A stretch of DNA of 35,269 nt from a virus (taxonomy: Duplodnaviria > Heunggongvirae > Uroviricota > Caudoviricetes). Location of the stretch: IMG/VR virus record IMGVR_UViG_2563366848_000003. One strand, given 5' to 3'. Shown in pieces: positions 673 to 25,646 of the stretch (positions are counted from its first letter, which is position 1; each line of letters starts with the position of its first letter). Both the position numbers and the translations under genes were made by a program. A model generated the notes under the pieces. The model saw only the letters and a program-made list of their open reading frames with translations, was not told the origin of the DNA and made no database searches.

Positions 673-1413
673 ATGCCTGTACCAAATCCTACAATGCCGG
701 TGAAAGGGGCCGGGACCACACTGTGGGTTTATAAGGGGAACGGTGACCCTTATGCGAACCCGCTTTCAGACGTTGACTGGTCGCGTCTGGCAAAAGTTAA
801 AGACCTGACGCCCGGCGAACTGACCGCTGAGTCCTATGACGACAGTTATCTCGATGATGAGGATGCGGACTGGACTGCGACCGGGCAGGGGCAGAAATCA
901 GCCGGAGATACCAGCTTCACGCTGGCGTGGATGCCCGGAGAGCAGGGGCAGCAGGCGCTGCTGGCGTGGTTTAATGAAGGTGATACCCGTGCCTATAAAA
1001 TCCGCTTCCCGAACGGCACGGTCGATGTGTTCCGTGGCTGGGTCAGCAGTATCGGTAAGGCGGTGACGGCGAAGGAAGTGATCACCCGCACGGTGAAAGT
1101 CACCAATGTGGGACGTCCGTCGATGGCAGAAGATCGCAGCACGGTAACAGCGGCCACCGGCATGACGGTAACGCCAGCCAGTGCTTCCGTAGTGAAAGGG
1201 CAGAGCACCACGCTGACCGTGGCCTTCCAGCCGGAAGGCGCAACCGACAAGAGCTTCCGTGCGGTGTCAGCGGATAAAACAAAAGCCACCGTGTCGGTCA
1301 GTGGTATGACCATCACCGTGAACGGCGTTGCTGCAGGCAAGGTCAACATTCCGGTCGTATCCGGTAATGGTGAACTTGCTGCGGTTGCAGAAATCACCGT
1401 CACCGCCAGTTAA
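673..1413 (+). CDS. V: major tail tube protein V with C-terminal Ig-like domain
   Basis: ATG at 673 preceded by GAGGA; 246 aa beginning [22 protein letters not shown] as in lambda gpV. The tabulated ORF start at 643 is an in-frame upstream extension without a ribosome-binding site. Confidence 0.93.
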
Positions 1414-1428
1414 TCCGGGGAGTCAGCG

Positions 1429-1851
1429 ATGTTCCTGAAAACCGAATCATTTGAACATAACGGTGTGACCGTCACGCTTTCTGAACTGTCAGCCCTGCAG
1501 CGTATTGAGCATCTCGCCCTGATGAAACGGCAGGCAGAACAGGCGGAGTCAGACAGCAACCGGAAGTTTACTGTGGAAGACGCCATCAGAACCGGCGCGT
1601 TTCTGGTGGCGATGTCCCTGTGGCATAACCATCCGAAGAAGACAAAGCTGCCTTCCATGAATGAAGCCGTTAAACAGATTGAGCAGGAAGTGCTTACCAC
1701 CTGGCCCACAGAGGCAATTTCTCATGCTGAAAACGTGGTGTACCGGCTGTCCGGTATGTATGAGTTTGTGGTGAATGATGCTCCTGAACAGGCAGAGGAC
1801 GCCGGGCCTGCAGAGCCTGTTTCTGCGGGAAAGTGTTCGACGGTGAGCTGA
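1429..1851 (+). CDS. G: tail assembly chaperone G
   Basis: 140-aa ORF (MFLKTESFEHNGVTVTLSELSALQRIEHLALMKRQ...) matching lambda gpG; carries the slippery heptamer G GGA AAG near its 3' end. Confidence 0.93.
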   Translation: MFLKTESFEHNGVTVTLSELSALQRIEHLALMKRQAEQAESDSNRKFTVEDAIRTGAFLVAMSLWHNHPKKTKLPSMNEAVKQIEQEVLTTWPTEAISHAENVVYRLSGMYEFVVNDAPEQAEDAGPAEPVSAGKCSTVS

Positions 1852-2267
1852 GTTTTGCCCTGAAACTGGCGCGTGAGATGGGGCGACCCGACTGGCGCGC
1901 CATGCTTGCCGGGATGTCATCCACGGAGTATGCCGACTGGCACCGCTTTTACAGTACCCATTATTTTCATGATGTTCTGCTGGATATGCACTTTTCCGGG
2001 CTGACGTACACCGTGCTCAGCCTGTTTTTCAGCGATCCGGAGATGCATCCGCTGGATTTCAGTCTGCTGAACCGGCGCGAGGCTGACGAAGAGCCTGAAG
2101 ATGATGTGCTGATGCAGAAAGCGGCAGGGCTTGCCGGAGGCGTTCGTTTTGGCCCGGACGGGAATGAAGTTATCCCCGCTTCCCCGGATGTGGCGGACAT
2201 GACGGAGGATGACGTAATGCTGATGACAGTATCAGAAGGGATCGCAGGAGGAGTCCGGTATGGCTGA
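1429..2267 (+). CDS. T: tail assembly chaperone G-T fusion made by programmed -1 ribosomal frameshift
   Basis: The -1 frame downstream of the slippery site has no ATG but is open to 2267 (VFDGELSFALKLAREMGRPDWRAMLAGMSSTEYADWHRFY..., lambda gpT-like). The T frame overlaps the H start at 2260. Confidence 0.85.
1827..1833 (+). other. slippery heptamer G GGA AAG for the G/GT -1 frameshift
   Basis: GGGAAAG sits in the G reading frame as X XXG GGA AAG, 19 nt before the G stop. This is the canonical lambda G-T shift site. Confidence 0.85.
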
Positions 2268-4839
2268 ACCGGTAGGCGATCTGGTCGTTGATTTGAGTCT
2301 GGATGCGGCCAGATTTGACGAGCAGATGGCCAGAGTCAGGCGTCATTTTTCCGGTACGGAAAGTGATGCGAAAAAAACAGCGGCAGTCGTTGAACAGTCG
2401 CTGAGCCGACAGGCACTGGCTGCACAGAAAGCGGGGATTTCCGTCGGGCAGTATAAAGCCGCCATGCGTATGCTGCCTGCACAGTTCACCGACGTGGCCA
2501 CGCAGCTTGCAGGCGGGCAGAACCCGTGGCTGATCCTGCTGCAACAGGGTGGTCAGGTGAAGGACTCCTTCGGCGGGATGATCCCCATGTTCAGGGGGCT
2601 TGCCGGTGCGATCACCCTGCCGATGGTCGGGGCCACCTCGCTGGCGGTGGCGACCGGTGCGCTGGCGTATGCCTGGTATCAGGGCAACTCAACCCTGTCT
2701 GATTTCAACAAAACGCTGGTCCTTTCCGGTAATCAGGCAGGACTGACGGCAGATCGTATGCTGATCCTGTCCAGAGCCGGGCAGGCGGCAGGGCTGACGT
2801 TTAACCAGACCAGCGAGTCACTCAGTGCGCTGGTTAAGGCGGGGGTAAGCGGTGAGGCTCAGATTGCGTCCATCAGCCAGAGTGTGGCGCGTTTCTCCTC
2901 TGCATCCGGCGTGGAGGTGGACAAGGTCGCTGAAGCCTTCGGGAAGCTGACCACTGACCCGACGTCGGGGCTGACGGCGATGGCGCGCCAGTTCCATAAC
3001 GTGACGGCGGAGCAGATTGCGTATGTTGCTCAGTTGCAGCGTTCCGGCGATGAAGCCGGGGCATTGCAGGCGGCGAACGAGGCCGCAACGAAAGGGTTTG
3101 ATGACCAGACCCGTAAACTGAAAGATAACATGGGTACGCTGGAGACCTGGGCAGACAAGACTGCACAGGCATTCAAATCCATGTGGGATGCGGTGCTGGA
3201 TATTGGTCGCCCGGACTCCTCTGCAGATATGCTCGCCAAAGCTGAAAAGGCTTTTGATGAAGCGGATAAAAAATGGCAGTGGTATCAGAGCCGGAGCCAC
3301 CGGCGCGGTAAAACGTCAGCATTTCTTGCCAATCTCCGGGGGGCATGGGAGAAGAGAGAGAATGCGCGACTTGGGCTTTCAGCCGCCACGTTGCAGGCAG
3401 ATCTTGAAAAGGCCAGTGAGATGGCAGCAAAAGATCGGGCCGAGTCTGAGGCATCACGGCTGAAATATACCGAAGAGGCGCAGAAGGCTTACGAACGCCT
3501 GCAGACACCGCTGGAGAAATATACCGCCCGCCAGGAGGAACTGAATAAGGCTCTGAAAGACGGAAAAATCCTGCAGGCAGATTACAACACGCTGATGGCG
3601 GCGGCGAAAAAGGACTATGAAGCGACGCTGAAAAAGCCGAAGCAGTCCGGCGTGAAAGTGTCTGCGGGCGATCGTCAGGAAGACAGTGCTCATGCTGCCC
3701 TGCTGACGCTTCAGGCAGAACTCCGGATGCTGGAGAAGCATGCCGGAGCGAATGAGAAAATCAGCCAGCAGCGCCGGGATTTGTGGAAGGCAGAAAGTCA
3801 GTTCGCGGTACTGGAGGAGGCGGCGCAACGTCGCCAGCTGTCTGCACAGGAGAAATCCCTGCTGGCGCATAAAGATGAGACGCTGGAGTACAAACGCCAG
3901 CTGGCTGCACTTGGCGACAAGGTTACGTATCAGGAGCGCCTGAACGCGCTGGCGCAGCAGGCGGATAAATTCGCACAGCAGCAACGGGCAAAACGGGCCG
4001 CCATTGATGCGAAAAGCCGGGGGCTGACTGACCGGCAGGCAGAACGGGAAGCCACGGAACAGCGCCTGAAGGAACAGTATGGCGATAATCCGCTGGCGCT
4101 GAATAACGTCATGTCAGAGCAGAAAAAGACCTGGGCGGCTGAAGACCAGCTTCGCGGGAGCTGGATGGCAGGCCTGAAGTCCGGCTGGAGTGAGTGGGAA
4201 GAGAGCGCCACGGACAGTATGTCGCAGGTTAAAAGTGCAGCCACGCAGACCTTTGATGGTATTGCACAGAATATGGCAGCGATGCTGACCGGCAGTGAGC
4301 AGAACTGGCGCAGCTTCACCCGTTCCGTGCTGTCCATGATGACAGAAATTCTGCTTAAGCAGGCAATGGTGGGGATTGTCGGGAGTATCGGCAGCGCCAT
4401 TGGCGGGGCTGTTGGTGGCGGCGCATCCGCGTCAGGCGGTACAGCCATTCAGGCCGCTGCGGCGAAATTCCATTTTGCAACTGGAGGATTCACAGGAACC
4501 GGCGGCAAATATGAGCCAGCGGGGATTGTTCACCGTGGTGAATTTGTCTTCACGAAGGAGGCAACCAGCCGGATTGGCGTGGGGAATCTCTACCGGCTGA
4601 TGCGCGGCTATGCCACCGGTGGTTATGTCGGTACACCGGGCAGTCTGGCTGACAGCCGGTCGCAGGCGTCCGGGACGTTTGAGCAGAATAACCATGTGGT
4701 GATTAACAACGACGGCACGAACGGGCAGATAGGTCCGGCTGCTCTGAAGGCGGTGTATGACATGGCCCGCAAGGGTGCCATTGATGAAATTCCCACGCAG
4801 ATGCGTGATGGTGGCCTGTTCTCCGGAGGTGGACGATGA
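2260..4839 (+). CDS. H: tail tape measure protein H
   Basis: 859-aa ORF with a coiled-coil-rich centre and a Gly-rich C-terminal region; N-terminus MAEPVGDLVVDLSLDAARFDEQMARVRRHF as in lambda gpH (853 aa). Stop overlaps the M start. Confidence 0.95.
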   Translation: MAEPVGDLVVDLSLDAARFDEQMARVRRHFSGTESDAKKTAAVVEQSLSRQALAAQKAGISVGQYKAAMRMLPAQFTDVATQLAGGQNPWLILLQQGGQVKDSFGGMIPMFRGLAGAITLPMVGATSLAVATGALAYAWYQGNSTLSDFNKTLVLSGNQAGLTADRMLILSRAGQAAGLTFNQTSESLSALVKAGVSGEAQIASISQSVARFSSASGVEVDKVAEAFGKLTTDPTSGLTAMARQFHNVTAEQIAYVAQLQRSGDEAGALQAANEAATKGFDDQTRKLKDNMGTLETWADKTAQAFKSMWDAVLDIGRPDSSADMLAKAEKAFDEADKKWQWYQSRSHRRGKTSAFLANLRGAWEKRENARLGLSAATLQADLEKASEMAAKDRAESEASRLKYTEEAQKAYERLQTPLEKYTARQEELNKALKDGKILQADYNTLMAAAKKDYEATLKKPKQSGVKVSAGDRQEDSAHAALLTLQAELRMLEKHAGANEKISQQRRDLWKAESQFAVLEEAAQRRQLSAQEKSLLAHKDETLEYKRQLAALGDKVTYQERLNALAQQADKFAQQQRAKRAAIDAKSRGLTDRQAEREATEQRLKEQYGDNPLALNNVMSEQKKTWAAEDQLRGSWMAGLKSGWSEWEESATDSMSQVKSAATQTFDGIAQNMAAMLTGSEQNWRSFTRSVLSMMTEILLKQAMVGIVGSIGSAIGGAVGGGASASGGTAIQAAAAKFHFATGGFTGTGGKYEPAGIVHRGEFVFTKEATSRIGVGNLYRLMRGYATGGYVGTPGSLADSRSQASGTFEQNNHVVINNDGTNGQIGPAALKAVYDMARKGAIDEIPTQMRDGGLFSGGGR

Positions 4840-5868: not shown

Positions 5869-6612
5869 ATGACACAGACAGAATCAGCGATTCTGGCGCA
5901 CGCCCGGCGATGTGCGCCAGCGGAGTCGTGCGGCTTCGTGGTGAGAACGCCGGAGGAGGAAAGCTATTTTCCCTGCGTGAATATCTCCGGTGAGCCGGAG
6001 GCGTATTTCCGTATGTCGCCGGAAGACTGGCTGCAGGCAGAAATGCAGGGTGAGATTGTGGCGCTGGTCCACAGTCATCCCGGTGGTCTGCCCTGGCTGA
6101 GTGAGGCCGACCGGCGGCTGCAGGTGCAGAGTGATTTGCCGTGGTGGCTGGTCTGCCGGGGGACGATTCATAAGTTCCGCTGTGTGCCGCATCTCACCGG
6201 GCGGCGCTTTGAGCACGGTGTGACGGACTGTTACACACTGTTCCGGGATGCTTATCATCTGGCGGGGATTGAGATGCCGGACTTTCATCGTGAGGATGAC
6301 TGGTGGCGTAACGGCCAGAATCTCTATCTGGATAATCTGGAGGCGACGGGGCTGTATCAGGTGCCGTTGTCAGCGGCACAGCCGGGCGATGTGCTGCTGT
6401 GCTGTTTTGGTTCATCAGTGCCGAATCACGCCGCAATTTACTGCGGCGACGGCGAGCTGCTGCACCATATTCCTGAACAACTGAGCAAACGAGAGAGGTA
6501 CACCGACAAATGGCAGCGACGCACACACTCCCTCTGGCGTCACCGGGCATGGCGCGCATCTGCCTTTACGGGGATTTACAACGATTTGGTCGCCGCATCG
6601 ACCTTCGTGTGA
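5869..6612 (+). CDS. K: tail tip assembly protein K (JAMM/MPN + NlpC/P60 domains)
   Basis: 247-aa ORF with the JAMM metalloprotease motif HSHPGGLPWLSEAD (H-x-H-x7-S-x2-D) and a Cys/His pair in the C-terminal half consistent with NlpC/P60 (GVTDCYTLF ... HHIP). Its 3' end overlaps I by 103 nt. Confidence 0.88.
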   Translation: MTQTESAILAHARRCAPAESCGFVVRTPEEESYFPCVNISGEPEAYFRMSPEDWLQAEMQGEIVALVHSHPGGLPWLSEADRRLQVQSDLPWWLVCRGTIHKFRCVPHLTGRRFEHGVTDCYTLFRDAYHLAGIEMPDFHREDDWWRNGQNLYLDNLEATGLYQVPLSAAQPGDVLLCCFGSSVPNHAAIYCGDGELLHHIPEQLSKRERYTDKWQRRTHSLWRHRAWRASAFTGIYNDLVAASTFV

Positions 6613-11454: not shown

Positions 11455-14349
11455 ATGGCAGTACGGATTTCAGGTGTACTGAAAGATGGCGCAGGTAAGC
11501 CGATACAAAACTGCACCATTCAGCTAAAGGCCAGGCGCAACAGCACCACGGTGGTGGTGAACACAGTGGCCTCAGAAAACCCGGATGAAGCCGGGCGTTA
11601 CACAATGGACGTCGAGTATGGTCAGTACAGCGTCAGTCTGTTGGTGGAGGGATTCCCGCCGTCACACGCCGGGATTATCACCGTATATGAGGACTCAAAG
11701 CCGGGCACACTGAATGATTTCCTCGGTGCAATGACGGAGGATGATGTCCGGCCAGAGGCACTGCGCCGTTTTGAACTGATGGTGGAAGAGGTGGCGCGTA
11801 ACGCGTCCGCAGTGGCACAGAACACGGCAGCCGCGAAGAAGTCAGCCGGCGATGCCGGCACATCTGCCCGTGAGGCGGCAACCCATGCGACTGATGCTGC
11901 AGGCTCAGCACGCGCAGCCAGCACGTCAGCCGGACAGGCCGCTTCGTCGGCTCAGTCAGCGTCTTCCAGCGCAGGAACGGCATCAGCAAAGGCCACTGAA
12001 GCATCAAAAAGTGCTGCCGCTGCAGAGTCCTCAAAAAGCGCGGCGGCCACCAGTGCCGCTGCGGCAAAAACGTCAGAAACGAATGCGGCAGCGTCACAAC
12101 AATCAGCAGCCACTTCAGCATCCACCGCAACCACGAAAGCGTCAGAAGCTGCCACCTCAGCCCGGGATGCGTCGGCTTCAAAAGAGGCGGCAAAATCATC
12201 AGAAACGAGCGCAGCCTCGAGCGCCAGCAGCGCAGCTTCCTCGGCAACGGCGACAGCAAATTCTGCGAAGGCGGCAAAAACGTCCGAGACGAACGCCAAG
12301 GCTTCTGAAACGGCAGCGGGACAGAGTGCCTCAGCTGCGGCAGGCTCAAAAACAGCGGCTGCGTCGTCTGCCAGTGCCGCGTCAACAAGTGCCGGGCAGG
12401 CCTCAGCCAGTGCCACCGCCGCCGGAAAATCGGCAGAAAGTGCTGCATCGTCCGCTTCAACAGCCACAACGAAGGCTGGCGAAGCCGCTGTACAGGCCAG
12501 CGCAGCAGCGAGGTCTGCTTCCGCAGCGAAGACATCCGAAACGAATGCGAAAGCGTCGGAAACCCGTGCAGAATCCTCAAAAACGGCAGCCGCATCGTCC
12601 GCCAGTTCGGCAGCGTCATCGGCATCATCTGCGTCTGCTTCAAAAGATGAGGCGACCAGACAGGCGTCAGCAGCGAAGGGCAGCGCCACGACGGCATCCA
12701 CGAAAGCAACAGAGGCGGCAGGCAGTGCGACGGCAGCATCTCAGAGCAAAACTGCTGCTGAATCCGCTGCGACCCGTGCGGAAGCTGCTGCTGATCGTGC
12801 TGAAGAGATTGCCGGTGCAGTTGCGATGGAAGACGCAAGCCTTACAACTAAAGGTGTTGTGAAACTTAGCAGTGCTGTTGATAGCACCAGTGAATCGCTG
12901 GCCGCAACGCCAAAAGCAGTTAAAGCAGCCAATGACAATGCGAATAGCAGGGTGCCATCTAACCGAAAAGTTAACGGAAAAGCACTGACTGCGGATATAA
13001 CATTAACGCCGAAAGATATTGGTACTTTAAATTCAGTAACGATGTCTTTCTCTGGCGGGGCTGGGTGGTTCAAACTGGCTACGGTTACCATGCCACAAGC
13101 GAGTTCCATCGTTTACATCGCATTGATTGGTGGCGCTGGTTACAACGTCGGTTCCCCACATCAGGCAGGCATTTCAGAACTGGTTCTACGAGCAGGCAAT
13201 GGAAACCCCAAAGGAATTACCGGGGCTTTGTGGAAGCGTACAGCCGTCGGATTAACGAATTTCGCCTGGATCAACACATCCGGCGATACATATGATATTT
13301 ACGTTGAGATTGGCAATTATGCGACTCGTGTAAATATCCATTGGGATTGTACTGCAAATGCGACAGTTTCTATTTATACATCGCCAACATATTCAGCGAG
13401 TAAGCCTTCCAGCGTTACCGATGGTGTTGTTTATACGATGTATAGCACACATCAGAAACCGACGCCGTTAGATATTGGAGCACTGCCAACAACCGGAGGA
13501 ACAGTTTCAGGTCCGTTGTCTGTTACAGGTGGATTAACTGGTTCATTGAATGGTAATGCAAGTACAGCCACGAAATTGCAGACGGCAAGATCTATCGGTG
13601 GAGTTGTTTTCGACGGTTCTGCAAATATTAACCTTCCAGGTGTAAACACTACGGGTAATCAGAACACCACTGGTAATGCTGCAACTGCCACAAAACTACA
13701 GACTGCACGGAATATCAACGGCGTTCCGTTTGACGGCACGAAGGATATTACGCTTACGCCTAAAGATCTGGATGCCTACAGCAAAAGCGAAGTACAGAGC
13801 GCACTGGCGGGCAAACAACCGCTGGACAATACGCTGACTAATTTGAGTGGAAAGGATGTAGCTGGTCTTCTCGCATACCTTGGTTTGGGCGAAACGATAA
13901 ATAAAGCCTCCGGAGCTATGCAGAAATCGGCTAATGGAGCTGATATTTCTGATGTATCAGCCTTCCGAAATGCGCTCCAGTTAGGGACCGCCGCAACACG
14001 AGATGTTGGAGCAGATAATGCCTCGAAGTTACTGGATTTAGACAGCTTCAGGTCAATGATGTCAGGGAATGGCTACATCTACATTCCATGCATTGCGACG
14101 ACAGGAAACCCGGTGAAACTTATGTTGCAGTGGGGAACGGTGGCAACACAAAAGGGAGCTGATGCTGGATATGCCTTACCATTTGCTTTTCCCTATGCAG
14201 GCTTATTTGCGACCGGAAACCGTGGAACATCTGGCTACAATGCCGCGATGAATGTGCGTATTGCCAGCAGAACGCATATCAGTATTCAGAACTGGTCGCC
14301 ATCCGGAGAGGGCACCGAAGATTGTTGTTTTATCGCGCTGGGGTATTAA
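11455..14349 (+). CDS. stf: side tail fibre protein Stf (extended, 964 aa)
   Basis: N-terminus MAVRISGVLKDGAGKPIQNCTIQLKARRNSTTVVVNTVASENPDEAGRY as in lambda Stf; ~300-aa Ala/Ser/Thr-rich region; two phage tail fibre repeat motifs (ATKLQTAR-x-I-x-GV-x-FDG); distinct C-terminal domain ending ...FIALGY. Confidence 0.9.
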   Translation: MAVRISGVLKDGAGKPIQNCTIQLKARRNSTTVVVNTVASENPDEAGRYTMDVEYGQYSVSLLVEGFPPSHAGIITVYEDSKPGTLNDFLGAMTEDDVRPEALRRFELMVEEVARNASAVAQNTAAAKKSAGDAGTSAREAATHATDAAGSARAASTSAGQAASSAQSASSSAGTASAKATEASKSAAAAESSKSAAATSAAAAKTSETNAAASQQSAATSASTATTKASEAATSARDASASKEAAKSSETSAASSASSAASSATATANSAKAAKTSETNAKASETAAGQSASAAAGSKTAAASSASAASTSAGQASASATAAGKSAESAASSASTATTKAGEAAVQASAAARSASAAKTSETNAKASETRAESSKTAAASSASSAASSASSASASKDEATRQASAAKGSATTASTKATEAAGSATAASQSKTAAESAATRAEAAADRAEEIAGAVAMEDASLTTKGVVKLSSAVDSTSESLAATPKAVKAANDNANSRVPSNRKVNGKALTADITLTPKDIGTLNSVTMSFSGGAGWFKLATVTMPQASSIVYIALIGGAGYNVGSPHQAGISELVLRAGNGNPKGITGALWKRTAVGLTNFAWINTSGDTYDIYVEIGNYATRVNIHWDCTANATVSIYTSPTYSASKPSSVTDGVVYTMYSTHQKPTPLDIGALPTTGGTVSGPLSVTGGLTGSLNGNASTATKLQTARSIGGVVFDGSANINLPGVNTTGNQNTTGNAATATKLQTARNINGVPFDGTKDITLTPKDLDAYSKSEVQSALAGKQPLDNTLTNLSGKDVAGLLAYLGLGETINKASGAMQKSANGADISDVSAFRNALQLGTAATRDVGADNASKLLDLDSFRSMMSGNGYIYIPCIATTGNPVKLMLQWGTVATQKGADAGYALPFAFPYAGLFATGNRGTSGYNAAMNVRIASRTHISIQNWSPSGEGTEDCCFIALGY
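11850..12800 (+). repeat. intragenic low-complexity Ala/Ser/Thr coding repeats within stf
   Basis: Reiterated peptide units (AAKTSETNAKASE, SAASSASSAASSA) and matching DNA motifs such as gcggcaaaaacgtc[ac]ga[ag]acgaa at ~12061 and ~12274; similar unit at ~12523. These drive the long shadow ORFs on both strands (11678-12838, 11852-12862, 11952-12701). Confidence 0.8.
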
Positions 14350-14351
14350 GA

Positions 14352-14762
14352 ATGAATAAATTTTATAAAGGCTCTTTCTATCCGAAAGCACTAAAAGAGG
14401 TATATATCAGCGCCGGTTCATGGCCTGAAAATGGCGTTGATGTTGATGATGAAACAATGGCAATTTACACAGGCGTAGCGCCACAAGGCAAAACGCTGGG
14501 GGCTGATAAAAATGGTAATCCTGCGTGGATTGATATCCCGCCACTCTCCGCTGAACAACAGATTATTCAGGCTGAACAGAAAAGAACGGTATTGCGTTCT
14601 ATGGCTGATAAGGAAATAGCCTGGAGACAGGATGCTTTTGATGCGGAAATCGCGACGGCAGAAGAAACCGCCGCGTTATCTGAATGGAAAAAATACCGGG
14701 TCTTGCTGATGCGCGTTGATACAGCAAAACCCGTATGGCCTGTCAATCCGCAGGATATTTAA
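14352..14762 (+). CDS. tfa: tail fibre assembly protein Tfa
   Basis: ATG at 14352 directly after the stf stop (MNKFYKGSFYPKALKEVY...); conserved Tfa C-terminal motif ETAALSEWKKYRVLLMRVDTAKPVWPVNP. The tabulated start at 14322 overlaps stf and is less likely. Confidence 0.85.
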   Translation: MNKFYKGSFYPKALKEVYISAGSWPENGVDVDDETMAIYTGVAPQGKTLGADKNGNPAWIDIPPLSAEQQIIQAEQKRTVLRSMADKEIAWRQDAFDAEIATAEETAALSEWKKYRVLLMRVDTAKPVWPVNPQDI

Positions 14763-14976
14763 CGGGGGCGTTGTAGGTGGTGACATATTCAAGCAGTTCT
14801 GTTGGATATGTCACCGTTGCTGCATCTCGCTCTACGTTAAATGTATCCGCTCCCCAGATAACACACTCCCTCAAAAATGCCTCCACCTCTGGCGAGACTT
14901 CAACCGCATCATCAGGTCGCTCTTGTTCAGAAACATAAAAACCAACGGTCGTTGGGCTGAAATACATATTCTCCAT
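14743..14976 (-). pseudogene. inverted alternative tail-fibre assembly gene tfa' (N-terminal 77 aa only)
   Basis: Minus-strand ORF MENMYFSPTTVGFYVSEQ... has a Tfa-type N-terminus (YFS...GFY) but lacks the conserved Tfa C-terminal domain; its 3' end overlaps tfa. Confidence 0.45.
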
Positions 14977-14978
14977 AT

Positions 14979-15452
14979 TTAGTATCCTATTGCTTCAAAA
15001 TGCAAAGTCGGAATTTCGCCGAGATTGGGTGTCGTATACGACACAGTGAATCGCGTTCTTGATACGTCAGTGCCAGAATCAGTATCGCGATGCGTTGCCA
15101 GTGATTTCCCAGCCATTGTTGCCTGGGTCGAAAAGCTGTAACTCGCTAGTGTTGCCAGCGTTGCTATTTGTGCATTTGGGAATTGTCTGGGGAAATTAAC
15201 CCTGTAGTAATGGGTGTAGTACAGCACTCCACCAAGAGTAATTGCGTTGAAATTACCAACAGGCGTCAGTGTCACAGTACCAACCTGTCGAATCATACCA
15301 TTTGGGAGAATATCCCAGGCAGTTTGTCCGTTTCGCGACATACCAAATGCGGACATGTCCGGGAGTTGATTATTACCGGTTCCGACATTACGTTTTGCCG
15401 CTTCTCCCAATTGAACGTTTATGAAAATGCAGAAATAGCGCGCAAATGGCAT
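14979..15452 (-). pseudogene. inverted alternative tail-fibre C-terminal segment (Sv'-like), no start of its own
   Basis: Minus-strand frame ending ...PTLHFEAIGY, paralleling the stf C-terminus ...CCFIALGY and sharing a D-x-SAF motif. Position and orientation (stf-tfa / tfa'-Sv' / pin) match Mu G, P1 C and e14 P invertible segments. Confidence 0.5.
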
Positions 15453-15481
15453 CGTTCCTGTTTTTGTCAGGAGGAGCTATC

Positions 15482-15610
15482 ATGCTTATTGGCTATGTTC
15501 GCGTATCAACAAATGACCAGAACACAGATCTACAACGTAATGCGCTGAACTGTGCAGGATGCGAGCTGATTTTTGAAGACAAGATAAGCGGTACAAAGTC
15601 CGAAACCTAG
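15482..15610 (+). pseudogene. pin: truncated serine DNA invertase (Pin/Gin/Hin family), first 42 codons only
   Basis: MLIGYVRVSTNDQNTDLQRNALNCAGCELIFEDKISGTKSET* matches the N-terminus of Pin/Gin including the catalytic Ser in VRVSTNDQ; the frame stops at TAG 15608-15610 and similarity is lost thereafter. Confidence 0.8.
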
Positions 15611-15705: not shown

Positions 15706-17595
15706 TTAATCGTGTTTTGGCCATACTTTCAATGCAATTTCCCCCAACTTTTTACCCCGCTCCAGGATTTCATCCTCATCCCATTTATCCTTAACTATAA
15801 GTGGAATGTTCAGTCGTAGATTGGTGTGGACGATGAGAGCATCACGTTTTTTCAGAAATACAGCATTCTGAACAGAACGGTTTACGCTAAGGTTAAGCAA
15901 AGTTAGATTTCCCAACGTAGCTATCGCTTGTTGCCGTTTCCTTACCAGTAGCTGTTCTGGGGTAAGATCGGTTCCAGACAGAACAATTTGGTTCAATACC
16001 GTAGCATCTGAATTTGTCACCATATGACCATTTTCGAGAGGCCAACAGGAATACCAACTTTGAGGCATAAGATGATCGATATCGAGGTTAGAAAGATTTG
16101 GAACATCAGGCTTCTCTGTCTTCACTTGGCGACAAAGTTCTCTTTCAAGTTCCGTTAACATTGAGCGCATTTTCGGTGCGTCGAGCCTGCCAGGATAAAG
16201 TGGAGCATTGATGCAAGCGTTGAGAAATTCTGAGTCCCCAGGCCAACGTGAGGCTTCGCCATTTAAGCTATTGAGGATATTACGTAACTCAACACTGGAA
16301 ATTTCTGTTTTAGACAAGTGCCGCAATACATTCATAAATACATTGTTGTAATTCTTTGGCGTCAGGCCACATACGGCTCTTCGTACTACGTAGGAGACAA
16401 GATCATTATACATGGCTGCTTTCTCATCATCGGCGATGTTAGCTATCGAAATGAACAAAGCAAGCGGATAAAGTGTCGTCACATCATAGGCTGCGATGCG
16501 ATGTCCAAAGTGTGAGATGGGGGTTGTGCCAAAACCACCAACCAATTCTTTATATTGTGATGCATATTGTTTGAGGCGCTTTACTTGCAGATCTGCTCGT
16601 TGTGAAGGCAAGTCCTTACTTACATAATCACGATACTCATTGTAAAGACGAGACAGATCGATTTCACGTTGCCTTTCTGATTGCAATGTTGCATGCACTA
16701 GCCACTCCATGCGTGGTTTATTAATACGACCACGACGTTGTCTTTCTGACCAGTACGTATCTTCAAAGATCTTCCACTCATTCTCATATAATTCAACAGC
16801 ATTAATATTTTCATGTTCAGCGCACATAAAAATATAATTGCGAATAAGATCTGTGGCATGAAGTTCCGCACCTCTGCCATTTAATGTTTCAAAAATTATT
16901 TGAGCGTCATCTTCAGCCTCGAGAAATATGCTTACTAGTTTCAGATCCGTCAAGACAGCCTCAATTAATGCTACAGCATTTTCTCGTGGTGAGTGATTTT
17001 CTATTTTAATCCACTTTATAAAGGCTTCAGTAAAAAAACATAATGCTTCTAGTGATGGCGGGTGATTAAAATGCTTACGCAACGTACCATGCTGCGTGAA
17101 ACTATCAGAGAATACATTCCGGATATCGTCAATATTTTCAACATTAAAACTTTGAATAAAATGAGTTTGATCCCGAAAAGTTGGCCACAGTTTGAAGCGC
17201 TCTACTTCTTTATTTCGCATTGTGTCTTCGTTTGAGTTTTTCAGGCAAGACGAAATGAGAGGCTCTAAGTTGGAAAGATCTGTCGCACGTAATGCTAATC
17301 GGATGGATGCCAGAACATATTGAAGAGTGGTCAATCGTTGCTGACCATCAATAATATGTATGGAATCTACACCGAATAATCCTTTTTTTGGTTGAGGTTC
17401 CAGTACCACTGCACCAAGGAAATGGGGAGTTGGTTTTGTACCCGAGAGCCGGGATTGTGCTTTCTCTAGGATATCCTCCAGTAGAGCTGACCATTGGTTT
17501 CGCTGAGTCCATACATAGGCACGTTGATAGAATGGAACACAGTATTGTCGGCGGTCTTGAAAAAGTTGTTGGACAGTTAGCGTCTCGGATTTCAT
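15706..17595 (-). CDS. DUF262 (ParB-like NTPase, DGQQR) + DUF1524 (His-Me finger nuclease) protein; GmrSD-family putative type IV restriction endonuclease
   Basis: N-terminal motifs PFYQRAYVWT and IIDGQQRLTTL; C-terminal LDIDHLMPQS...N; about 630 aa. Start chosen at the ATG (17595) preceded by AGG, giving MKSETLTVQQLF...; an upstream in-frame ATG at 17655 has no SD. AT-rich relative to the flanking phage genes. Confidence 0.8.
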   Translation of the reverse strand: MKSETLTVQQLFQDRRQYCVPFYQRAYVWTQRNQWSALLEDILEKAQSRLSGTKPTPHFLGAVVLEPQPKKGLFGVDSIHIIDGQQRLTTLQYVLASIRLALRATDLSNLEPLISSCLKNSNEDTMRNKEVERFKLWPTFRDQTHFIQSFNVENIDDIRNVFSDSFTQHGTLRKHFNHPPSLEALCFFTEAFIKWIKIENHSPRENAVALIEAVLTDLKLVSIFLEAEDDAQIIFETLNGRGAELHATDLIRNYIFMCAEHENINAVELYENEWKIFEDTYWSERQRRGRINKPRMEWLVHATLQSERQREIDLSRLYNEYRDYVSKDLPSQRADLQVKRLKQYASQYKELVGGFGTTPISHFGHRIAAYDVTTLYPLALFISIANIADDEKAAMYNDLVSYVVRRAVCGLTPKNYNNVFMNVLRHLSKTEISSVELRNILNSLNGEASRWPGDSEFLNACINAPLYPGRLDAPKMRSMLTELERELCRQVKTEKPDVPNLSNLDIDHLMPQSWYSCWPLENGHMVTNSDATVLNQIVLSGTDLTPEQLLVRKRQQAIATLGNLTLLNLSVNRSVQNAVFLKKRDALIVHTNLRLNIPLIVKDKWDEDEILERGKKLGEIALKVWPKHD

Positions 17596-18065
17596 GGTAT
17601 ACCTGTAAGCGACATTGTACAAAAGTGAGGAGTTAATCTGATTTAGAACAATCATTTTATGTTGCTATGATACAACGTATTTGTTACCGGTTAAGTAAAA
17701 AACGCGTCTGAACGCTGACGTTTTAGGGCTTTACTAGTTATTCTTTCTTATCTCTTCATCATCCCATCGGCATCCTGTCGAGGTTGTTGACTTGTTGTTA
17801 TTTATTTTGTTTAGGCGCTGTTTAATTATTATTGATGGGACTGGTGGTGAGAGGTGATTGAAACCGCAGACAGGTCGTATGCAAGACGTGCTGCGGTTGG
17901 CTGATGCACTTTTGATAGTGCAAGTATTGAATGATTGCCAGTCACAGCGGATTGTACTTAGGTAATATGACGGTTCAAGGCGTTTAAACTGAAACCATCC
18001 ACATATCAGTCTCTTCAAACATTTCCTAAATCGTTCGGCTTATCTGTTCTTTCTCACGTTTGCTG

Positions 18066-18525: not shown

Positions 18526-19191
18526 TTAATTGTCTAAGCTGGTATAATATGAATAAAGGCTTTTTCCCATTATTTTCTCTAAATCCTTTTTGTTTCTAAA
18601 GAAAATGTTTGAGATATGCTGATGATAATACTTTATAATGATTCTCATCAGCGCCGATACTACTTCATGAAGTTTTTTCACCATTTTATGCTGTGTTGAA
18701 TTACAATCTCCCTCCATAAGTGATATAAATGTTGATGTAACATTTAGGTTCGCTTGGGGGGAGGAGTGAACATAATAACAGGCGTTGATATAGACATTAT
18801 GTAAATAAGACCAGCCTTCATCGACTTGTTGGGCTTTTAAGAAGTCAAAGTCTCTACGACGTACAGTTTGGTCAAAATCCCCACCATTGTAGTTCTTATT
18901 GAGGCTTATTCTGGCCACATGCTCCACCATTGAGCGGAAGTTCAGTTGGAGATACCGTTCTCTTTTTTTTATAATGGCAATTAAGGAGTTTAAGGTATCA
19001 TATATAAAACCTTTTATATAAGAAGAGTGATTTAGATTAGGATTGTGACTTAAAATTGTATTACAAAGACTTATTTGCCTAAATATTGATACTGATTTGT
19101 TTATTTCATCAGTGGTTCTGAGGTGCTTTTGCACCTCCGCTCTAAAATAATTTACATCTCTTCCAATGTTGAAGGGATCCTGCGTGAGCAT
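18526..19191 (-). CDS. hypothetical protein (221 aa), third gene of the ParA-like operon
   Basis: AT-rich ORF; its start overlaps the stop of the upstream 132-aa gene (translational coupling). No family recognised by eye. Confidence 0.6.
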   Translation of the reverse strand: MLTQDPFNIGRDVNYFRAEVQKHLRTTDEINKSVSIFRQISLCNTILSHNPNLNHSSYIKGFIYDTLNSLIAIIKKRERYLQLNFRSMVEHVARISLNKNYNGGDFDQTVRRRDFDFLKAQQVDEGWSYLHNVYINACYYVHSSPQANLNVTSTFISLMEGDCNSTQHKMVKKLHEVVSALMRIIIKYYHQHISNIFFRNKKDLEKIMGKSLYSYYTSLDN

Positions 19192-19589
19192 TATTCTTCT
19201 TCCTTTTTATTTGCATTAATCCAAATATTTAAATTCCTTATAGCATGCTTGCTTTTAGATGTGGATTTTTGGCTTGTTTTATTTGCATCATTAAAAATAA
19301 TGTCTAATGTGTTAATGTTGTTTAAGAAATGCGTATAAGCCATCTTTATGTCATTCTCACTTAATTCATTAATATGTCTGCAAATTTTAGCGCACATCAA
19401 AGTTCTTGACCGTACAGCATAATTCAAAAAAGATATTTTGAAGGTTTTGTTAATAAATTTACTAACATCAAAATTTGATCTAAAAACCTCTTTTGAAAGA
19501 ATCAACATAATTACCAAGCCTAAGAAGTTTTCTTTGGTCATGGGCATATTATTAGCTTTATTGAGCGCTTTAATTAATTGTTTATTCAT
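19191..19589 (-). CDS. hypothetical small protein (132 aa), second gene of the ParA-like operon
   Basis: Start overlaps the ParA-like gene 3' end by 8 nt; Lys/Asn-rich; no family recognised. Could be a small centromere-binding or adaptor protein. Confidence 0.5.
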   Translation of the reverse strand: MNKQLIKALNKANNMPMTKENFLGLVIMLILSKEVFRSNFDVSKFINKTFKISFLNYAVRSRTLMCAKICRHINELSENDIKMAYTHFLNNINTLDIIFNDANKTSQKSTSKSKHAIRNLNIWINANKKEEE

Positions 19590-20427
19590 TTGTGTTACCT
19601 TCCAAGTGAGCCACTCTGTTAATAAATTCGTTACAGATCTTTTCTATATCTTGGCGTGACTTTGAATAACAAGAAGGAATATTTCCTTGATAACCTACCA
19701 TTAAATCACGCACGTAGGTTAATTGATTTTCAAAGAAATAAAAATTTGTAAATTGAGTATGGTTTTCGAATTGTTCTTTAATTTCCCTTGTTTTATTGGT
19801 CATTTCAGCATCAGTGTTTGTATAAATGTAACCGACTTGCTTGATTTCTTTCTCATGATGTGTGCGCATATTTCTTATAACGCTATTTAAACTGCTTGCT
19901 CCAAGCACCGAGTAGTGATCAATTTTAACCGGAGTAAGATAATAATCAGAAGCAAGGAGTGCGGTATCTGTAAATAATGAGATTGTTGGGGGGCTATCGA
20001 TAAAGATATAGTCGTAACTTTCTTTTAAGTCATTTTCGGTGATGAATTTACGCAACATTTTTATTCTAATACCCTCTTGGTTAGTATCAAAGATAATGTT
20101 TATATCACCTAAGATAATATCAAGATTGTCTGAAACTTTAGTAATGACCTGTTCTGGTGTCACTTTCTTTTCATCTTCCATTAATGAATTTGGAAGCTCA
20201 AAAATCTTTCGAATGGTTTGATTATTAGGGCGAAGGGCAGTCATATATTCTTCTACTCGATCATAATGCCCCATTAAGGACTGAGTGGCATTAAATTGAG
20301 GATCAATATCGATAACTAGAACCTTGCGCCCCATATGGTTGGCTAAAAACTCAGCAATCCCAACGCATAAAGTTGTTTTACCAACCCCACCTTTCATATT
20401 GATAAAACTAATTACTGGTGCAGTCAT
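19582..20427 (-). CDS. ParA/MinD-family P-loop ATPase (deviant Walker A)
   Basis: N-terminal FINMKGGVGKTTLCVGIAEFLA (KGGxGKT deviant Walker A), VIDIDPQ and downstream DSPP motifs typical of ParA/Soj; SD AAGGA 6-8 nt upstream of the ATG at 20427. Confidence 0.8.
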   Translation of the reverse strand: MTAPVISFINMKGGVGKTTLCVGIAEFLANHMGRKVLVIDIDPQFNATQSLMGHYDRVEEYMTALRPNNQTIRKIFELPNSLMEDEKKVTPEQVITKVSDNLDIILGDINIIFDTNQEGIRIKMLRKFITENDLKESYDYIFIDSPPTISLFTDTALLASDYYLTPVKIDHYSVLGASSLNSVIRNMRTHHEKEIKQVGYIYTNTDAEMTNKTREIKEQFENHTQFTNFYFFENQLTYVRDLMVGYQGNIPSCYSKSRQDIEKICNEFINRVAHLEGNTNE

Positions 20428-20465: not shown

Positions 20466-21175
20466 TATGCTGAAAGCATTTTTTAGCTTAATTTTTATAC
20501 TGCGCGTTGACTTATCACCCTATCATATATGATTTTTAGGTGTTGCATAGACTGGTTTTATATCAGGGGCTTAGGTTGTATGTGGCGTCACAGAATCACT
20601 AATCATTGAACTTTGTACATGTAACAGTCCGGTTAAATAATATATAATGGGTTGTTAAGTTGGCTCTCTGATTCCTGATGCCCCAAGGACGCGCGTCATT
20701 GCGTGCCAGATTAACTTTTCGTCGGGCACAGTGCTATCGGCAATTATTTCCTCAGCCTCTTTCCCGCATAGGTCTTGGCGCATCCATTTTCTTGCTATGA
20801 AATCTCCAGCCGGTCAGACTGAAAGTATAGAAGAGAATATGCGAATCGCTGTTCCGGTGTTTCTGGGAGAGCTTATGTCGGAGTAATTCCCCGGTAATTG
20901 AATCTCTTTTGCTCGCTCATAACAGACATTCACTACAGTTATGGTAGAAAGTATGTATGCTGATTGGGGAAAGTGTGAAAGAAAAGAAGACTGCTGCGCT
21001 GTTTGTCGTCACGTTTATCTTCATTGGCTATGCAAGTCATAATACAAGGTGGGACAAAACTGAGACACATAAGGCCTCACAATGGCTTGCAAGGCTTTAC
21101 ATGTTTTGATGTGGTGGGACGTGTGAGCACAGTGTTGATGGGGTAATACTTTGAATTAGAAGCGGATTCTTATAA

Positions 21176-21220
21176 TTCGTAATGCGAAGGTCGTAGGTTC
21201 GACTCCTATTATCGGCACCA
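21176..21220 (+). other. 45-bp 3' fragment of tRNA-Thr(CGU) (thrW-like): attachment-site remnant
   Basis: attcgtaatgcgaaggtcgtaggttcgactcctattatcggcacca contains the anticodon loop (CGT), T-arm GGTTCGACTCC and the 3' acceptor with CCA, but the preceding 30 nt do not form the D-arm or 5' acceptor, so it is not a complete tRNA gene. Confidence 0.75.
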
Positions 21221-21383
21221 TCTCAACTTCCTCAAACGTCCATATTTGTCCATAAATACCCTGATTTATAAAGACTTTTCTGCTTTTAAGTCCATCTTTG
21301 TCCGTAACCATCCAGTAGAATCCGATACGGAATGTGTATAGGATTGTGTATATGTTTCTGTTCTGTCCTGGATTCCTATACAC

Positions 21384-22553
21384 ATGCCTTTAAACGATAT
21401 GCAGATTCGTCGCGCTAAGCCTGAAGAGAAACCCTATACGCTTGGGGATGGTCAAGGCTTGTCATTACTTATAGAACCTAATGGGAGCAAGAGCTGGCGG
21501 TTTCGCTATCGCTATGCCGGTAAACCCAAAATGATCTCGCTTGGTGTTTACCCAACGATCACCCTTGCCGATGCTCGTTCCCGTCGTGACGAAGCCCGCA
21601 AATTGGTCGCCGAAGGAAAGAATCCGAGTGAGGTTCGAAAAGAGCAGAAGATTGCTTTGCAAACCGAGTCTGAAAGCGCGTTCGAAAAGATAGCGACAGA
21701 GTGGCACCAGATGAAATCTGCCAAATGGTCGGCCGGTTATGCATCAGACATCATGGAAGCTTTTCAGAACGATATTTTCCCTTATGTAGGTAAAAGGCCA
21801 ATTGGCGAAATAAAACCGCTAGAATTGCTTAATGTGCTGCGTAAAATTGAAAAACGAGGTGCGTTGGAGAAAATGCGGAAAGTGCGACAGCGTTGCTCGG
21901 AGGTTTTCCGTTATGCCATTGCTACAGGTAGAGCCGAGTTTAATCCTGCGGCAGATCTCTCAAGTGCCCTCGAAGTGCATCAATCCAATCATTTCCCGTT
22001 CCTTAAAGCTGATGAGTTACCTGATTTTTTGCGTGCTCTAGACAGTTACACAGGGAGTCGGCTTGTCCTTATTGCTACGAAGTTACTGATGATTACGGGC
22101 GTAAGAACCATTGAATTACGTGCAGCTTTATGGTCGGAATTTGATCTGGATAACGCTATTTGGGAAATACCAGCAGAAAGGATGAAAATGCGTAGGGCAC
22201 ACCTTGTGCCACTATCGACTCAAGCGTTAGATTTACTTAATGAACTCAAAGCGATGACAGGAAACTACCGTTATGTTTTTCCTGGACGAAATGATCCGAA
22301 TAAGCCAATGAGTGAGGCAAGTGTAAACCAAGTAATCAAACGCATTGGCTTTGGTGGCAAGGTTACAGGGCACGGATTCAGACATTCAATGTCTACTATT
22401 TTGCATGAGCAAGGATTTGAATCGAGTTGGATAGAGATGCAATTAGCTCATGTTGATAAAAACAGTATCCGAGGCACTTATAACCATGCTCAGTATTTTG
22501 ATAAACGCAGAGTTATGATGCAGTGGTATGCTGATTATGTACAGGGGAAATAA
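21384..22553 (+). CDS. int: P4-type tyrosine integrase
   Basis: 389-aa ORF with the P4-type N-terminal domain (IRRAKPEEKPYTLGDGQGLSLLIEPNGSKSWRFRYRYAGKPK) and a C-terminal catalytic domain (HGFRHSMSTILHEQGF ... HVDKNSIRGTYNHAQY); lies 164 bp downstream of the tRNA fragment. Confidence 0.95.
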   Translation: MPLNDMQIRRAKPEEKPYTLGDGQGLSLLIEPNGSKSWRFRYRYAGKPKMISLGVYPTITLADARSRRDEARKLVAEGKNPSEVRKEQKIALQTESESAFEKIATEWHQMKSAKWSAGYASDIMEAFQNDIFPYVGKRPIGEIKPLELLNVLRKIEKRGALEKMRKVRQRCSEVFRYAIATGRAEFNPAADLSSALEVHQSNHFPFLKADELPDFLRALDSYTGSRLVLIATKLLMITGVRTIELRAALWSEFDLDNAIWEIPAERMKMRRAHLVPLSTQALDLLNELKAMTGNYRYVFPGRNDPNKPMSEASVNQVIKRIGFGGKVTGHGFRHSMSTILHEQGFESSWIEMQLAHVDKNSIRGTYNHAQYFDKRRVMMQWYADYVQGK

Positions 22554-24053: not shown

Positions 24054-24091
24054 GTTATGATCAAATCAAGGGCCTTTTTAAGGCCTTTGAA

Positions 24092-24874
24092 TCAATCTTT
24101 GGCGTGTGATTTAAATTTAAATGATATTTTTCTCTTGGTATTTCTTAAGGATTTTGAAATTCGCCATTTTAAATTGAATAAAGTATCCAATAGCTTTTCT
24201 GAGTTCTGCTTATTTAGTAGTCTGTGTTCTTGTCTTATCATAAGGAATATTTCAAGGTATGGGTCGTCAATTTTTTCTTCCAGTTCTTCACAAGAGTAGC
24301 TGTTGACACGTTCAAGAGCGATATATTCCATCCTTATCTCATTTGGTTCCCTTAAACTTGTTTTTTCCCATTCTAATCTAATTGGCTTACTAAAAAGGGA
24401 TATGTTCTCCTTAATATGTGCCATAACACGTCTAAAACGATTGTTAAATTCTTCATTATCAGTATGCATAACTGGTGATTGATTTCCTAATAATGTTGAA
24501 CTTTTTTCTCTTTGGAATTTGTAATATTCCTCTGATACTTTTTTGCTAAAGCTGGCTTGATCTGATTTATTCTTGAAGCTTATATGTTCATAACTATCCG
24601 GACCATATATTTGTTCCATCCAGTGCAACTGACTAAATTGATTGACGGCTTGTTCTAAATCTTTATCTTCTGATGTGTATGTTTTCTGTGATTTTATTTT
24701 GTAGTCGAAAAGTAGTAAGTCGCAAACATCGAAGTAGATTTTGTCATAAGTTCTTAGACGTTCTATTTTTCTATTGTATTTTGACTGGCGAATGGTATTT
24801 AAAAATCCTAGGCAGGATATGATAAAACCACCTATAGAAATATATAAAGAAATTGAAGTGTTATCCTGCACCAA
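24092..24874 (-). CDS. hypothetical membrane-anchored protein (260 aa) with an N-terminal transmembrane helix
   Basis: N-terminus MVQDNTSISLYISIGGFIISCLGFLNTI is a predicted TM helix followed by a charged domain of unknown function. Convergent with the 499-aa gene (38-bp gap); AT-rich. Confidence 0.65.
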   Translation of the reverse strand: MVQDNTSISLYISIGGFIISCLGFLNTIRQSKYNRKIERLRTYDKIYFDVCDLLLFDYKIKSQKTYTSEDKDLEQAVNQFSQLHWMEQIYGPDSYEHISFKNKSDQASFSKKVSEEYYKFQREKSSTLLGNQSPVMHTDNEEFNNRFRRVMAHIKENISLFSKPIRLEWEKTSLREPNEIRMEYIALERVNSYSCEELEEKIDDPYLEIFLMIRQEHRLLNKQNSEKLLDTLFNLKWRISKSLRNTKRKISFKFKSHAKD

Positions 24875-24980
24875 CTTTCTCCCCTCTGAAAAATAGAATT
24901 CTTAAACCTAAAATTAATTGCATCTTCGGATAAGCTTTTCTATCTCAAAAAATTTAAATGGTCAACTATATTGGTGCGCA

Positions 24981-24999: not shown

Positions 25000-25004
25000 T
25001 GCCC
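24987..25004. repeat. 18-bp direct repeat ccccgccacgcctgcccg, copy 1 (overlaps the cos-like site)
   Basis: Identical 18-mer found again at 25433-25450. Confidence 0.8.
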
Positions 25005-25627: not shown

Positions 25628-25646
25628 CGAGGATTGCTTTGAGCCG

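What the first reader, a model, noticed from the sequence alone, without database searches (positions are those of the whole stretch)
1827..1833. Programmed -1 frameshift site for G/GT tail chaperones is conserved
The slippery heptamer GGGAAAG sits in the correct phase near the end of G, and the -1 frame continues open through the T region with no start codon of its own. This supports a functional tail assembly module.
Basis: partly seen in the sequence, partly recalled or inferred. Interest (0 to 1): 0.25.

Follow-up and report, generated by a model that had tools for sequence, protein, structure and literature searches.

The report
Lambda G/GT tail-chaperone frameshift site
This is the textbook phage-lambda ribosomal slip site that makes a short and a long tail-assembly chaperone from one message, sitting unchanged in a lambda-like prophage, so it is real but ordinary.

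Summary
GGGAAAG lies at 1827-1833 (+), phased G_GGA_AAG in gene G (1429-1851), five codons before G's stop. The -1 frame then runs 144 codons to TGA 2265-2267, overlapping the tape-measure (H) start. G-T DNA is 100% identical to phage 434 and 98% to lambda, where this same heptamer is the published G/GT -1 frameshift site (about 4% slippage).

The heptamer alone is not significant: 8 copies in the window against 4.3 expected. The context is. Of 48 in-phase slippery heptamers in 30 window genes, only this one extends far past the zero-frame stop.

The site is kept in 79 of 80 close viral-contig relatives. The same position is kept, as GGGAAAG, AAAAAAG or GGAAAAG, in homologues down to 28% G identity.

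One clause needs correcting. The -1 frame does contain start codons (GTG 1833, which RefSeq and PGAP use to annotate T, and several ATGs). None has a ribosome-binding site.

All tail genes U to J, stf and tfa are intact, so a working tail module is plausible but unproven.

Verdict: already known, low interest.

The parts
673..1413 (+). Gene V, major tail tube protein; upstream neighbour of G and the partner bound by the T domain
   Evidence: 246 aa, 98.4% identical to lambda V. Matches PF16461 and Big_2.
1417..1422 (+). Shine-Dalgarno sequence GGGGAG of gene G
   Evidence: Anti-SD duplex -7.6 kcal/mol. An RBS is annotated at the equivalent position in phage 434.
1429..1851 (+). Gene G, zero-frame product gpG (140 aa, 15.6 kDa), tail assembly chaperone
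   Evidence: ORF. PF06894 E=2e-59 and TIGR01674 equivalog E=4e-64. 96.4% identical to lambda G.
1827..1833 (+). Slippery heptamer G_GGA_AAG, the -1 ribosomal frameshift site
   Evidence: Sequence and phase. Identical to lambda and phage 434. Kept in 79 of 80 related viral contigs. Published lambda site (PMC3296357).
1833..2267 (+). T segment in the -1 frame (144 codons plus TGA), translated only as the C-terminal half of gpGT
   Evidence: Open frame. PF06223 and TIGR01715 equivalog E=1.6e-56. No SD before any in-frame start. Variation among relatives falls mainly on third positions of this frame, 30 of 52.
1429..2267 (+). gpGT fusion, join(1429..1833,1833..2267): 279 aa, 31.1 kDa, junction ...PVSAGK-VFDGEL...
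   Evidence: Constructed, mass. Carries both Pfam domains. The same join is annotated in phage 434, OL657226.
2260..4839 (+). Gene H, tape-measure protein (859 aa), the substrate of gpG/gpGT. Its ATG overlaps the T stop (ATGGCTGA)
   Evidence: ORF. PF06791 and PF09718. 92% identical to lambda H, 6 aa longer. Overlap context.

Best explanation
This is the lambda-type G/GT programmed -1 ribosomal frameshift site in a lambdoid prophage.

Ribosomes start at the G ATG (1429). Most read through to TGA 1849 and release gpG (140 aa). A few per cent slip, with tRNA-Gly on GGA in the P site and tRNA-Lys on AAG in the A site. They move back one base to GGG_AAA, read GUG (Val, 1833) next, and continue 144 codons to TGA 2265. 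The product is gpGT (279 aa).

gpG and the G half of gpGT coat the tape-measure protein H. The T half recruits the tube protein V. Both chaperones leave before the tail is finished. The fixed slip rate sets the roughly 30:1 G:GT ratio.

Shown here: the anatomy, phase, open frame, family membership, lack of an independent start, conservation, and sequence identity with the characterised lambda site. Inferred from lambda work: the slip frequency, the protein interactions, and the requirement for both products.
For: - Heptamer in phase five codons before the G stop, with the -1 frame open for 144 codons.
- 100% DNA identity to phage 434 G-GT, which is annotated as a join.
- 17 of 839 differences from lambda, none near the site. 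11 are synonymous and 6 are not; 4 of the 5 in the T part are synonymous in the -1 frame.
- G and T hit lambda equivalog models.
- It is the only one of 48 in-phase slippery heptamers in the window with a long extension past the stop.
- 79 of 80 IMG/VR relatives keep the site. Variable columns in the T-only part fall 30 of 52 on the third position of the T frame.
- Homologues at 69-28% G identity keep an in-phase slip site at the same place, as GGGAAAG, AAAAAAG or GGAAAAG, followed by a 113-152 codon T homologue.
- T-frame starts lack an SD.
- There is no strong flanking structure (z = -1.6 and -1.8), which fits a low-efficiency slip on the heptamer alone.
- Published: GGGAAAG is the lambda site, the zero frame is kept about 96% of the time, and slippage depends on tRNA-Lys U34 modification (PMC3296357). 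The 30:1 ratio, G binding H, T binding V, and absence of both from virions are in PMC5009743.
Against: Nothing in the sequence argues against it. There is no expression or protein evidence for this particular element. The promoter and antiterminator for late transcription are outside the window. Public annotation (lambda RefSeq, PGAP) lists T as a separate CDS starting at GTG, which read at face value would imply independent initiation.
Confidence: 0.95

Rival explanations
1. T is an independent gene, translated from its own start (GTG 1833 or a downstream ATG), as many database records annotate it. On this view the heptamer is incidental.
For: A GTG at 1833 and ATGs at 1878, 1902 and 1914 lie in the T frame. 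Lambda RefSeq and PGAP E. coli annotations list T as a separate CDS from that GTG.
Against: - None of these starts has SD complementarity: -1.5 to -2.2 kcal/mol against -5.6 to -10.8 for neighbouring genes.
- In diverged homologues the T frame opens only 0-21 codons upstream of the slip site, and the conserved T sequence begins right at the slip position.
- The literature describes T only as part of gpGT.
- From my own recall, not verified here: Levin et al. 1993 found no separate T product.
Confidence: 0.02
2. The site is intact but idle. The prophage is defective or never induced, so G/GT is a well-preserved relic rather than evidence of a working tail module.
For: - The window begins in Z, so head, lysis and regulatory genes are unseen.
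- The region downstream shows decay and insertions: a truncated invertase at 15446-15610, an IS21, and a satellite insertion.
- Related tail modules occur in 4010 of 5426 complete E. coli genomes, with a median of 2 places per genome that has any. I would expect many of these to be cryptic, though this was not examined.
Against: - All tail ORFs from U to tfa are full length, and U to I are 92-100% identical to lambda.
- Substitutions relative to lambda and among relatives are mostly synonymous in the correct frames.
- A close relative in E. coli TL-14 has capsid and head-completion genes directly upstream.
Confidence: 0.15
3. The long product arises by transcriptional slippage (RNA polymerase stuttering) rather than ribosomal slippage.
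For: None specific. It would give the same fusion protein.
Against: The site has runs of only three G and three A. Established knowledge is that transcriptional slippage needs long homopolymer runs, typically 8 or more. In lambda, slippage responds to tRNA-Lys U34 modification, which is a ribosomal property (PMC3296357).
Confidence: 0.01
4. The heptamer is a chance occurrence with no function.
For: The bare motif is not enriched in the window: 8 copies against 4.3 expected.
Against: It is unique in context among 48 in-phase heptamers. It is conserved in position across homologues down to 28% identity and in 79 of 80 close relatives. It is identical to an experimentally characterised site.
Confidence: 0.005

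Closest known systems
Phage lambda G / G-T tail assembly chaperones with programmed -1 frameshift (NC_001416 9711-10549; Levin, Hendrix & Casjens 1993; Xu, Hendrix & Duda 2004, 2013, 2014)
   Same: Same heptamer, same phase, same distance to the G stop (5 codons), same 140 aa and 279 aa products, same V-G-T-H gene order and the same T-stop/H-start overlap. 98% DNA identity; G is 96.4% and T 99.3% identical.
   Different: Six amino-acid substitutions in total: five in G (K70Q, K73Q, L74M, D117N, A122T, written window to lambda) and one in T (E/D). The tape measure H is 6 aa longer. None touches the slip site.
Phage 434 tape measure protein chaperones CPT_434_14/15 (OL657226)
   Same: G-T DNA is 100% identical over 839 nt, and the record annotates the frameshifted join.
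   Different: The rest of the window is not phage 434. No phage record covers more than 51% of the first 25 kb.
N15 / HK225 / phi80 / cdtI / Gifsy-1 type gpG-gpT homologues
   Same: Same family, same gene position, -1 extension of 113-120 codons. The slip site is at the aligned position with an in-phase A_AAG core.
   Different: The heptamer is GGAAAAG, which is not a canonical X_XXY_YYZ. G identity is only 28-46% and T is shorter.
E. coli dnaX tau/gamma -1 frameshift at A_AAA_AAG
   Same: Same mechanistic class: tandem -1 slippage that uses the single E. coli tRNA-Lys on an AAG codon (established knowledge).
   Different: From my own knowledge: dnaX has an upstream SD-like stimulator and a downstream hairpin and shifts about 50% of the time. 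No such elements are detectable here, and lambda shifts about 4%. The proteins are unrelated.

Membership tests
Lambda-type G/GT tail assembly chaperone frameshift (Xu et al. 2004 class) | Two overlapping ORFs located between the major tail protein gene and the tape-measure gene | tested here: met
   V 673-1413, G 1429-1851, T frame 1833-2267, H 2260-4839.
Lambda-type G/GT tail assembly chaperone frameshift (Xu et al. 2004 class) | [quoted passage not shown] | tested here: met
   G_GGA_AAG at 1827-1833, five codons before the stop.
Lambda-type G/GT tail assembly chaperone frameshift (Xu et al. 2004 class) | Downstream ORF in the -1 frame, open from the slip site, without its own translation initiation signal | tested here: met
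   144 open codons. Start codons exist, but anti-SD pairing is only -1.5 to -2.2 kcal/mol, against -5.6 to -10.8 for most real tail-gene starts.
Lambda-type G/GT tail assembly chaperone frameshift (Xu et al. 2004 class) | Sequence homology of both halves to gpG and gpT | tested here: met
   PF06894 199 bits and TIGR01674 214 bits for G. PF06223 54 bits and TIGR01715 189 bits for T. All are above the curated cut-offs.
Lambda-type G/GT tail assembly chaperone frameshift (Xu et al. 2004 class) | Slip site and -1 extension conserved among homologues | tested here: met
   79 of 80 IMG/VR loci. Nine diverged homologues keep the site at the aligned position.
Lambda-type G/GT tail assembly chaperone frameshift (Xu et al. 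2004 class) | Two protein products made at about 30:1 (about 4% frameshifting) | not testable with these tools
   Known for lambda. Inferred here from identical site and flanks.
Lambda-type G/GT tail assembly chaperone frameshift (Xu et al. 2004 class) | Both products required for tail assembly and absent from mature virions; G binds H, T binds V | not testable with these tools
   Literature on lambda only (PMC5009743).

The most novel reading that the evidence does not exclude
The evidence does not exclude that this intact lambda-type tail module, with its working G/GT ratio device, is kept by the host as a domesticated tail-like particle or bacteriocin, or otherwise behaves differently from lambda. 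For example, its five G substitutions and 6-aa-longer tape measure might change slip efficiency. The upstream half of the element is not in the window.
Probability: 0.03. Interest if true: 0.3.

Novelty: already known. Interest (0 to 1): 0.04.

Why it matters
The biological significance is nil, because the site has been a textbook case since 1993. The practical value is for annotation. The correct feature is a joined CDS, join(1429..1833,1833..2267), encoding a 279-aa gpGT alongside the 140-aa gpG. It is not a free-standing 'T' gene starting at GTG, as RefSeq lambda and PGAP list it. An intact site, together with intact U to J, stf and tfa, is one necessary indicator that the prophage's tail arm has not decayed.

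Tried and rejected
- Downstream stimulatory RNA structure: folds of 1834-1900, 1838-1960 and 1800-1900 gave z-scores of -1.6, -1.8 and -1.1. There is no stable helix at the usual 5-9 nt spacing, so no stimulator is claimed.
- Upstream SD-like stimulator: none, at -2.2 kcal/mol.
- Solved structure for G, T or GT: no PDB sequence match at E <= 0.01.
- Primary papers: Xu et al. 2013 and 2014 and a Casjens & Hendrix review were not held. Levin et al. 1993 and Xu et al. 2004 were seen only as citations. Published facts are taken from PMC5009743 and PMC3296357, and anything beyond them is marked as recall.
- The genome-contig scan mostly returned lambda DNA contaminating unrelated assemblies, so only L017, L018 and L020 were informative.
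- L024 (Shigella flexneri) is full of indels, either a decayed copy or a noisy assembly, and was set aside.
- The viral-contig scan with a diverse G alignment kept only 96-100% relatives. It gave a count of intact sites but no extra depth.
- The bare-motif enrichment test is not significant. Significance rests on context.
- tRNA scan of the window: none found.

Full report
**Observation**

The heptamer GGGAAAG is at 1827-1833 on the + strand. Gene G is the ORF 1429-1851 (140 aa). Its codons around the site are GCG (1825), GGA (1828), AAG (1831), so the heptamer is phased G_GGA_AAG, the arrangement needed for tandem -1 slippage. Five codons (C S T V S) and TGA 1849-1851 follow.

The -1 frame is open from 1788 to TGA 2265-2267. 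Reading on from base 1833 gives 144 further codons and a 279-aa, 31.1-kDa fusion, against 15.6 kDa for G alone. The T stop overlaps the start of the tape-measure gene (ATGGCTGA, H ATG at 2260).

**Is it more than chance?**

On its own the motif is not. It occurs 8 times in the window on both strands against 4.34 +/- 2.09 expected. The context is what counts.

I listed all in-phase X_XXY_YYZ heptamers in 30 genes of the window, covering 29.6 kb of coding sequence. There are 48. Only the G site yields a -1 product that runs substantially past the zero-frame stop: 416 nt, against 29 nt for the next best. Every other extension ends inside its own gene.

**What it is**

- The 839-nt G-T stretch is 100% identical to phage 434, whose record annotates the product as a two-piece joined CDS, 'tape measure protein chaperone'.
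- It differs from lambda at 17 of 839 positions. The nearest differences lie 18 nt upstream and 65 nt downstream of the heptamer.
- Of those 17 changes, 11 are synonymous in the frame in use. In the T-only part, 4 of 5 are synonymous in the -1 frame.
- G matches PF06894 and the NCBIfam equivalog TIGR01674. The -1 segment matches PF06223 and the equivalog TIGR01715. All scores are well above the curated cut-offs.
- The gene order is V-G-T-H-M-L-K-I-J.

**Conservation**

- Among 80 IMG/VR loci with 96-100% G identity, which hold 59 distinct G-T DNA sequences, 79 carry GGGAAAG in phase five codons before the G stop, and 76 have the full 144-codon extension.
- The one exception, L089, reads AGGAAAG through a change that is synonymous in G.
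- Variable columns fall mostly on third codon positions: 29 of 45 in the G frame upstream of the site, and 30 of 52 in the T frame downstream of the G stop. Each frame is therefore under purifying selection where it is read.
- In diverged homologues the shift position is retained although the heptamer changes:
  - GGGAAAG in Stx2a_2499 and an E. albertii prophage (68-69% G identity)
  - AAAAAAG in Stx2_14040 (43%)
  - GGAAAAG, an in-phase A_AAG core, in HK225, phi80, cdtI and Gifsy-1 (45-28%)
- In each case the -1 frame opens only 0-21 codons upstream of the site. It then encodes a 113-152-residue T homologue that begins at the slip position.

**The 'no start codon' clause**

This is literally incorrect. 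The first -1 codon is GTG (1833), and several ATGs follow. Lambda RefSeq and PGAP annotate T as a separate CDS from that GTG. Predicted pairing to the 16S anti-SD is only -1.5 to -2.2 kcal/mol for the first four of these starts, against -5.6 to -10.8 for G, H, U, V, M, L, I, J, lom and stf. The substance of the claim therefore stands: T has no credible independent initiation.

**Mechanism**

From the literature:
- Lambda's G/GT slippery sequence is GGGAAAG. The zero frame is kept about 96% of the time, and thiolation of tRNA-Lys U34 modulates the slip (PMC3296357).
- The products are needed at about 30:1. gpG and the G part of gpGT bind the tape measure gpH, and the T part binds the tube protein gpV. 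Neither product is in the virion (PMC5009743).

From the window:
- I found no significant RNA structure at stimulator spacing (z = -1.6 to -1.8).
- There is no SD-like element upstream.
- Both results fit a low-efficiency slip on the heptamer alone.
- Because the site and its flanks are identical to lambda's, I infer the same behaviour here. That inference was not measured.

**Is the tail module functional?**

- U, V, G, T, M, L and I are the same length as in lambda and 96-99.6% identical.
- H is 92% identical and 6 aa longer.
- K's 199-aa lambda-annotated part is 100% identical.
- J is 83.5% identical.
- stf is an uninterrupted 964-aa ORF.

This is consistent with a working tail arm but does not prove it. 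The window starts inside Z and lacks the head, lysis and late-control genes. A close relative in E. coli TL-14 has capsid and head-completion genes directly upstream.

**Comparison and novelty**

This is a member of the lambda G/GT class in every feature testable by sequence. Related tail modules are present in 4010 of 5426 complete E. coli genomes. It is already known, and the only practical consequence is correct annotation of the join.

**Surroundings**

The window is composite:
- A lambdoid tail arm runs to about 15.5 kb.
- Prophage cargo follows: a GmrSD type IV restriction enzyme, and two unknown ORFs with a ParA-like ATPase.
- From about 21.2 to 34.7 kb lies a P4-like satellite inserted next to the prophage end. 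It is bounded by a thrW-like tRNA 3' fragment and a degenerate repeat, and it carries an IS21.

Noticed in passing
window 1833-2267; L002 2116-2550; L003 3156-3590: Lambda RefSeq and PGAP E. coli annotations list T as a free-standing CDS starting at the GTG that overlaps the heptamer. Only the phage 434 record annotates the frameshifted G-T join. Automated annotation routinely misses this recoding event.
   Followed up: yes
L030 1599, L032 1608, L033 1575, L034 1584, L031 1599; L089 about 1899: The slip site varies across the gpG family while its position is fixed. It reads GGGAAAG, AAAAAAG, or the non-canonical GGAAAAG (HK225, phi80, cdtI, Gifsy-1). One close relative has AGGAAAG through a change synonymous in G. 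The constant core is an in-phase A_AAG.
   Followed up: partly
loci L004-L016, L019, L021-L023, L025-L028: Lambda G-T DNA at 89-100% protein identity turns up in assemblies of unrelated organisms (Neobacillus, Pseudomonas, Shewanella, Kitasatospora, Chromatium, Paenibacillus and others). It often sits on very low-coverage contigs, some about 48.4 kb long. This almost certainly reflects lambda DNA contamination of sequencing libraries.
   Followed up: no
window 2260-4839: The tape-measure protein H is 859 aa, against 853 in lambda and phage 434. It is 92% identical with 10 gap positions and is the most diverged of the core tail proteins U to I.
   Followed up: partly
window 5869-6612: K is a 247-aa ORF with JAB/MPN and NlpC/P60 domains. 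The lambda RefSeq K (199 aa) is 100% identical to residues 49-247, so the lambda annotation appears to start too late and cuts into the JAB domain.
   Followed up: partly
window 11455-15610: The side tail fibre stf is intact (964 aa) and followed by tfa. An oppositely oriented second set follows: a tfa-like N-terminus at 14743-14976 (-) and a fibre C-terminus at 14979-15452 (-). After that comes only the first 40 or so residues of a serine invertase (MLIGYVRVSTNDQ..., within ORF 15446-15610). This looks like a dead Gin/Pin-type invertible host-range segment. No long inverted repeats remain.
   Followed up: partly
window 15706-17655 (-): A full-length GmrSD-type type IV (modification-dependent) restriction enzyme lies in the prophage's distal accessory region (PF03235 and PF07510; PADLOC mREase_IV, 1439 bits).
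   Followed up: partly
window 18526-20427 (-): A three-gene block of two proteins of unknown function (221 and 132 aa; only PHROG unknown-function families) followed by a ParA-like ATPase. It is conserved next to the prophage end in E. coli TL-14.
   Followed up: no
window about 21155-34735: A P4-like satellite of about 13.5 kb is inserted between the prophage end and a LysR-gene fragment. E. coli TL-14 lacks it.
- Boundaries: a thrW-like tRNA 3' fragment ending TCCTATTATCGGCACCA (21204-21220) and a degenerate copy at about 34719-34734.
- Genes: integrase 21384-22553, Ogr/Delta, Psu, a Psu-like (Sid-like) protein, Ash, DUF5375, and an alpha-type primase-helicase 32042-34432.
- Rfam RNAs: C4 antisense RNA 31208-31295 and isrK 31062-31139.
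   Followed up: partly
window 26570-28872 (-): An IS21-family element (istA 513 aa, istB 249 aa) is inserted inside the satellite, between the psu and sid-like genes.
   Followed up: no
window 22554-24053 (+) and 24092-24874 (-): Two ORFs (499 and 260 aa) lie between the satellite integrase and the delta/psu genes, the position where P4-like satellites are reported to carry variable anti-phage cargo (my own recall). Neither has a Pfam, NCBIfam or PADLOC match. The larger hits only PHROG 18195, of unknown function. They are a candidate uncharacterised defence cargo.
   Followed up: partly
L024 1501-2330 (Shigella flexneri SFBU0723): A copy of G-T that keeps the heptamer but is riddled with single-base indels and premature stops. 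It is either a decayed prophage or a noisy long-read assembly.
   Followed up: no
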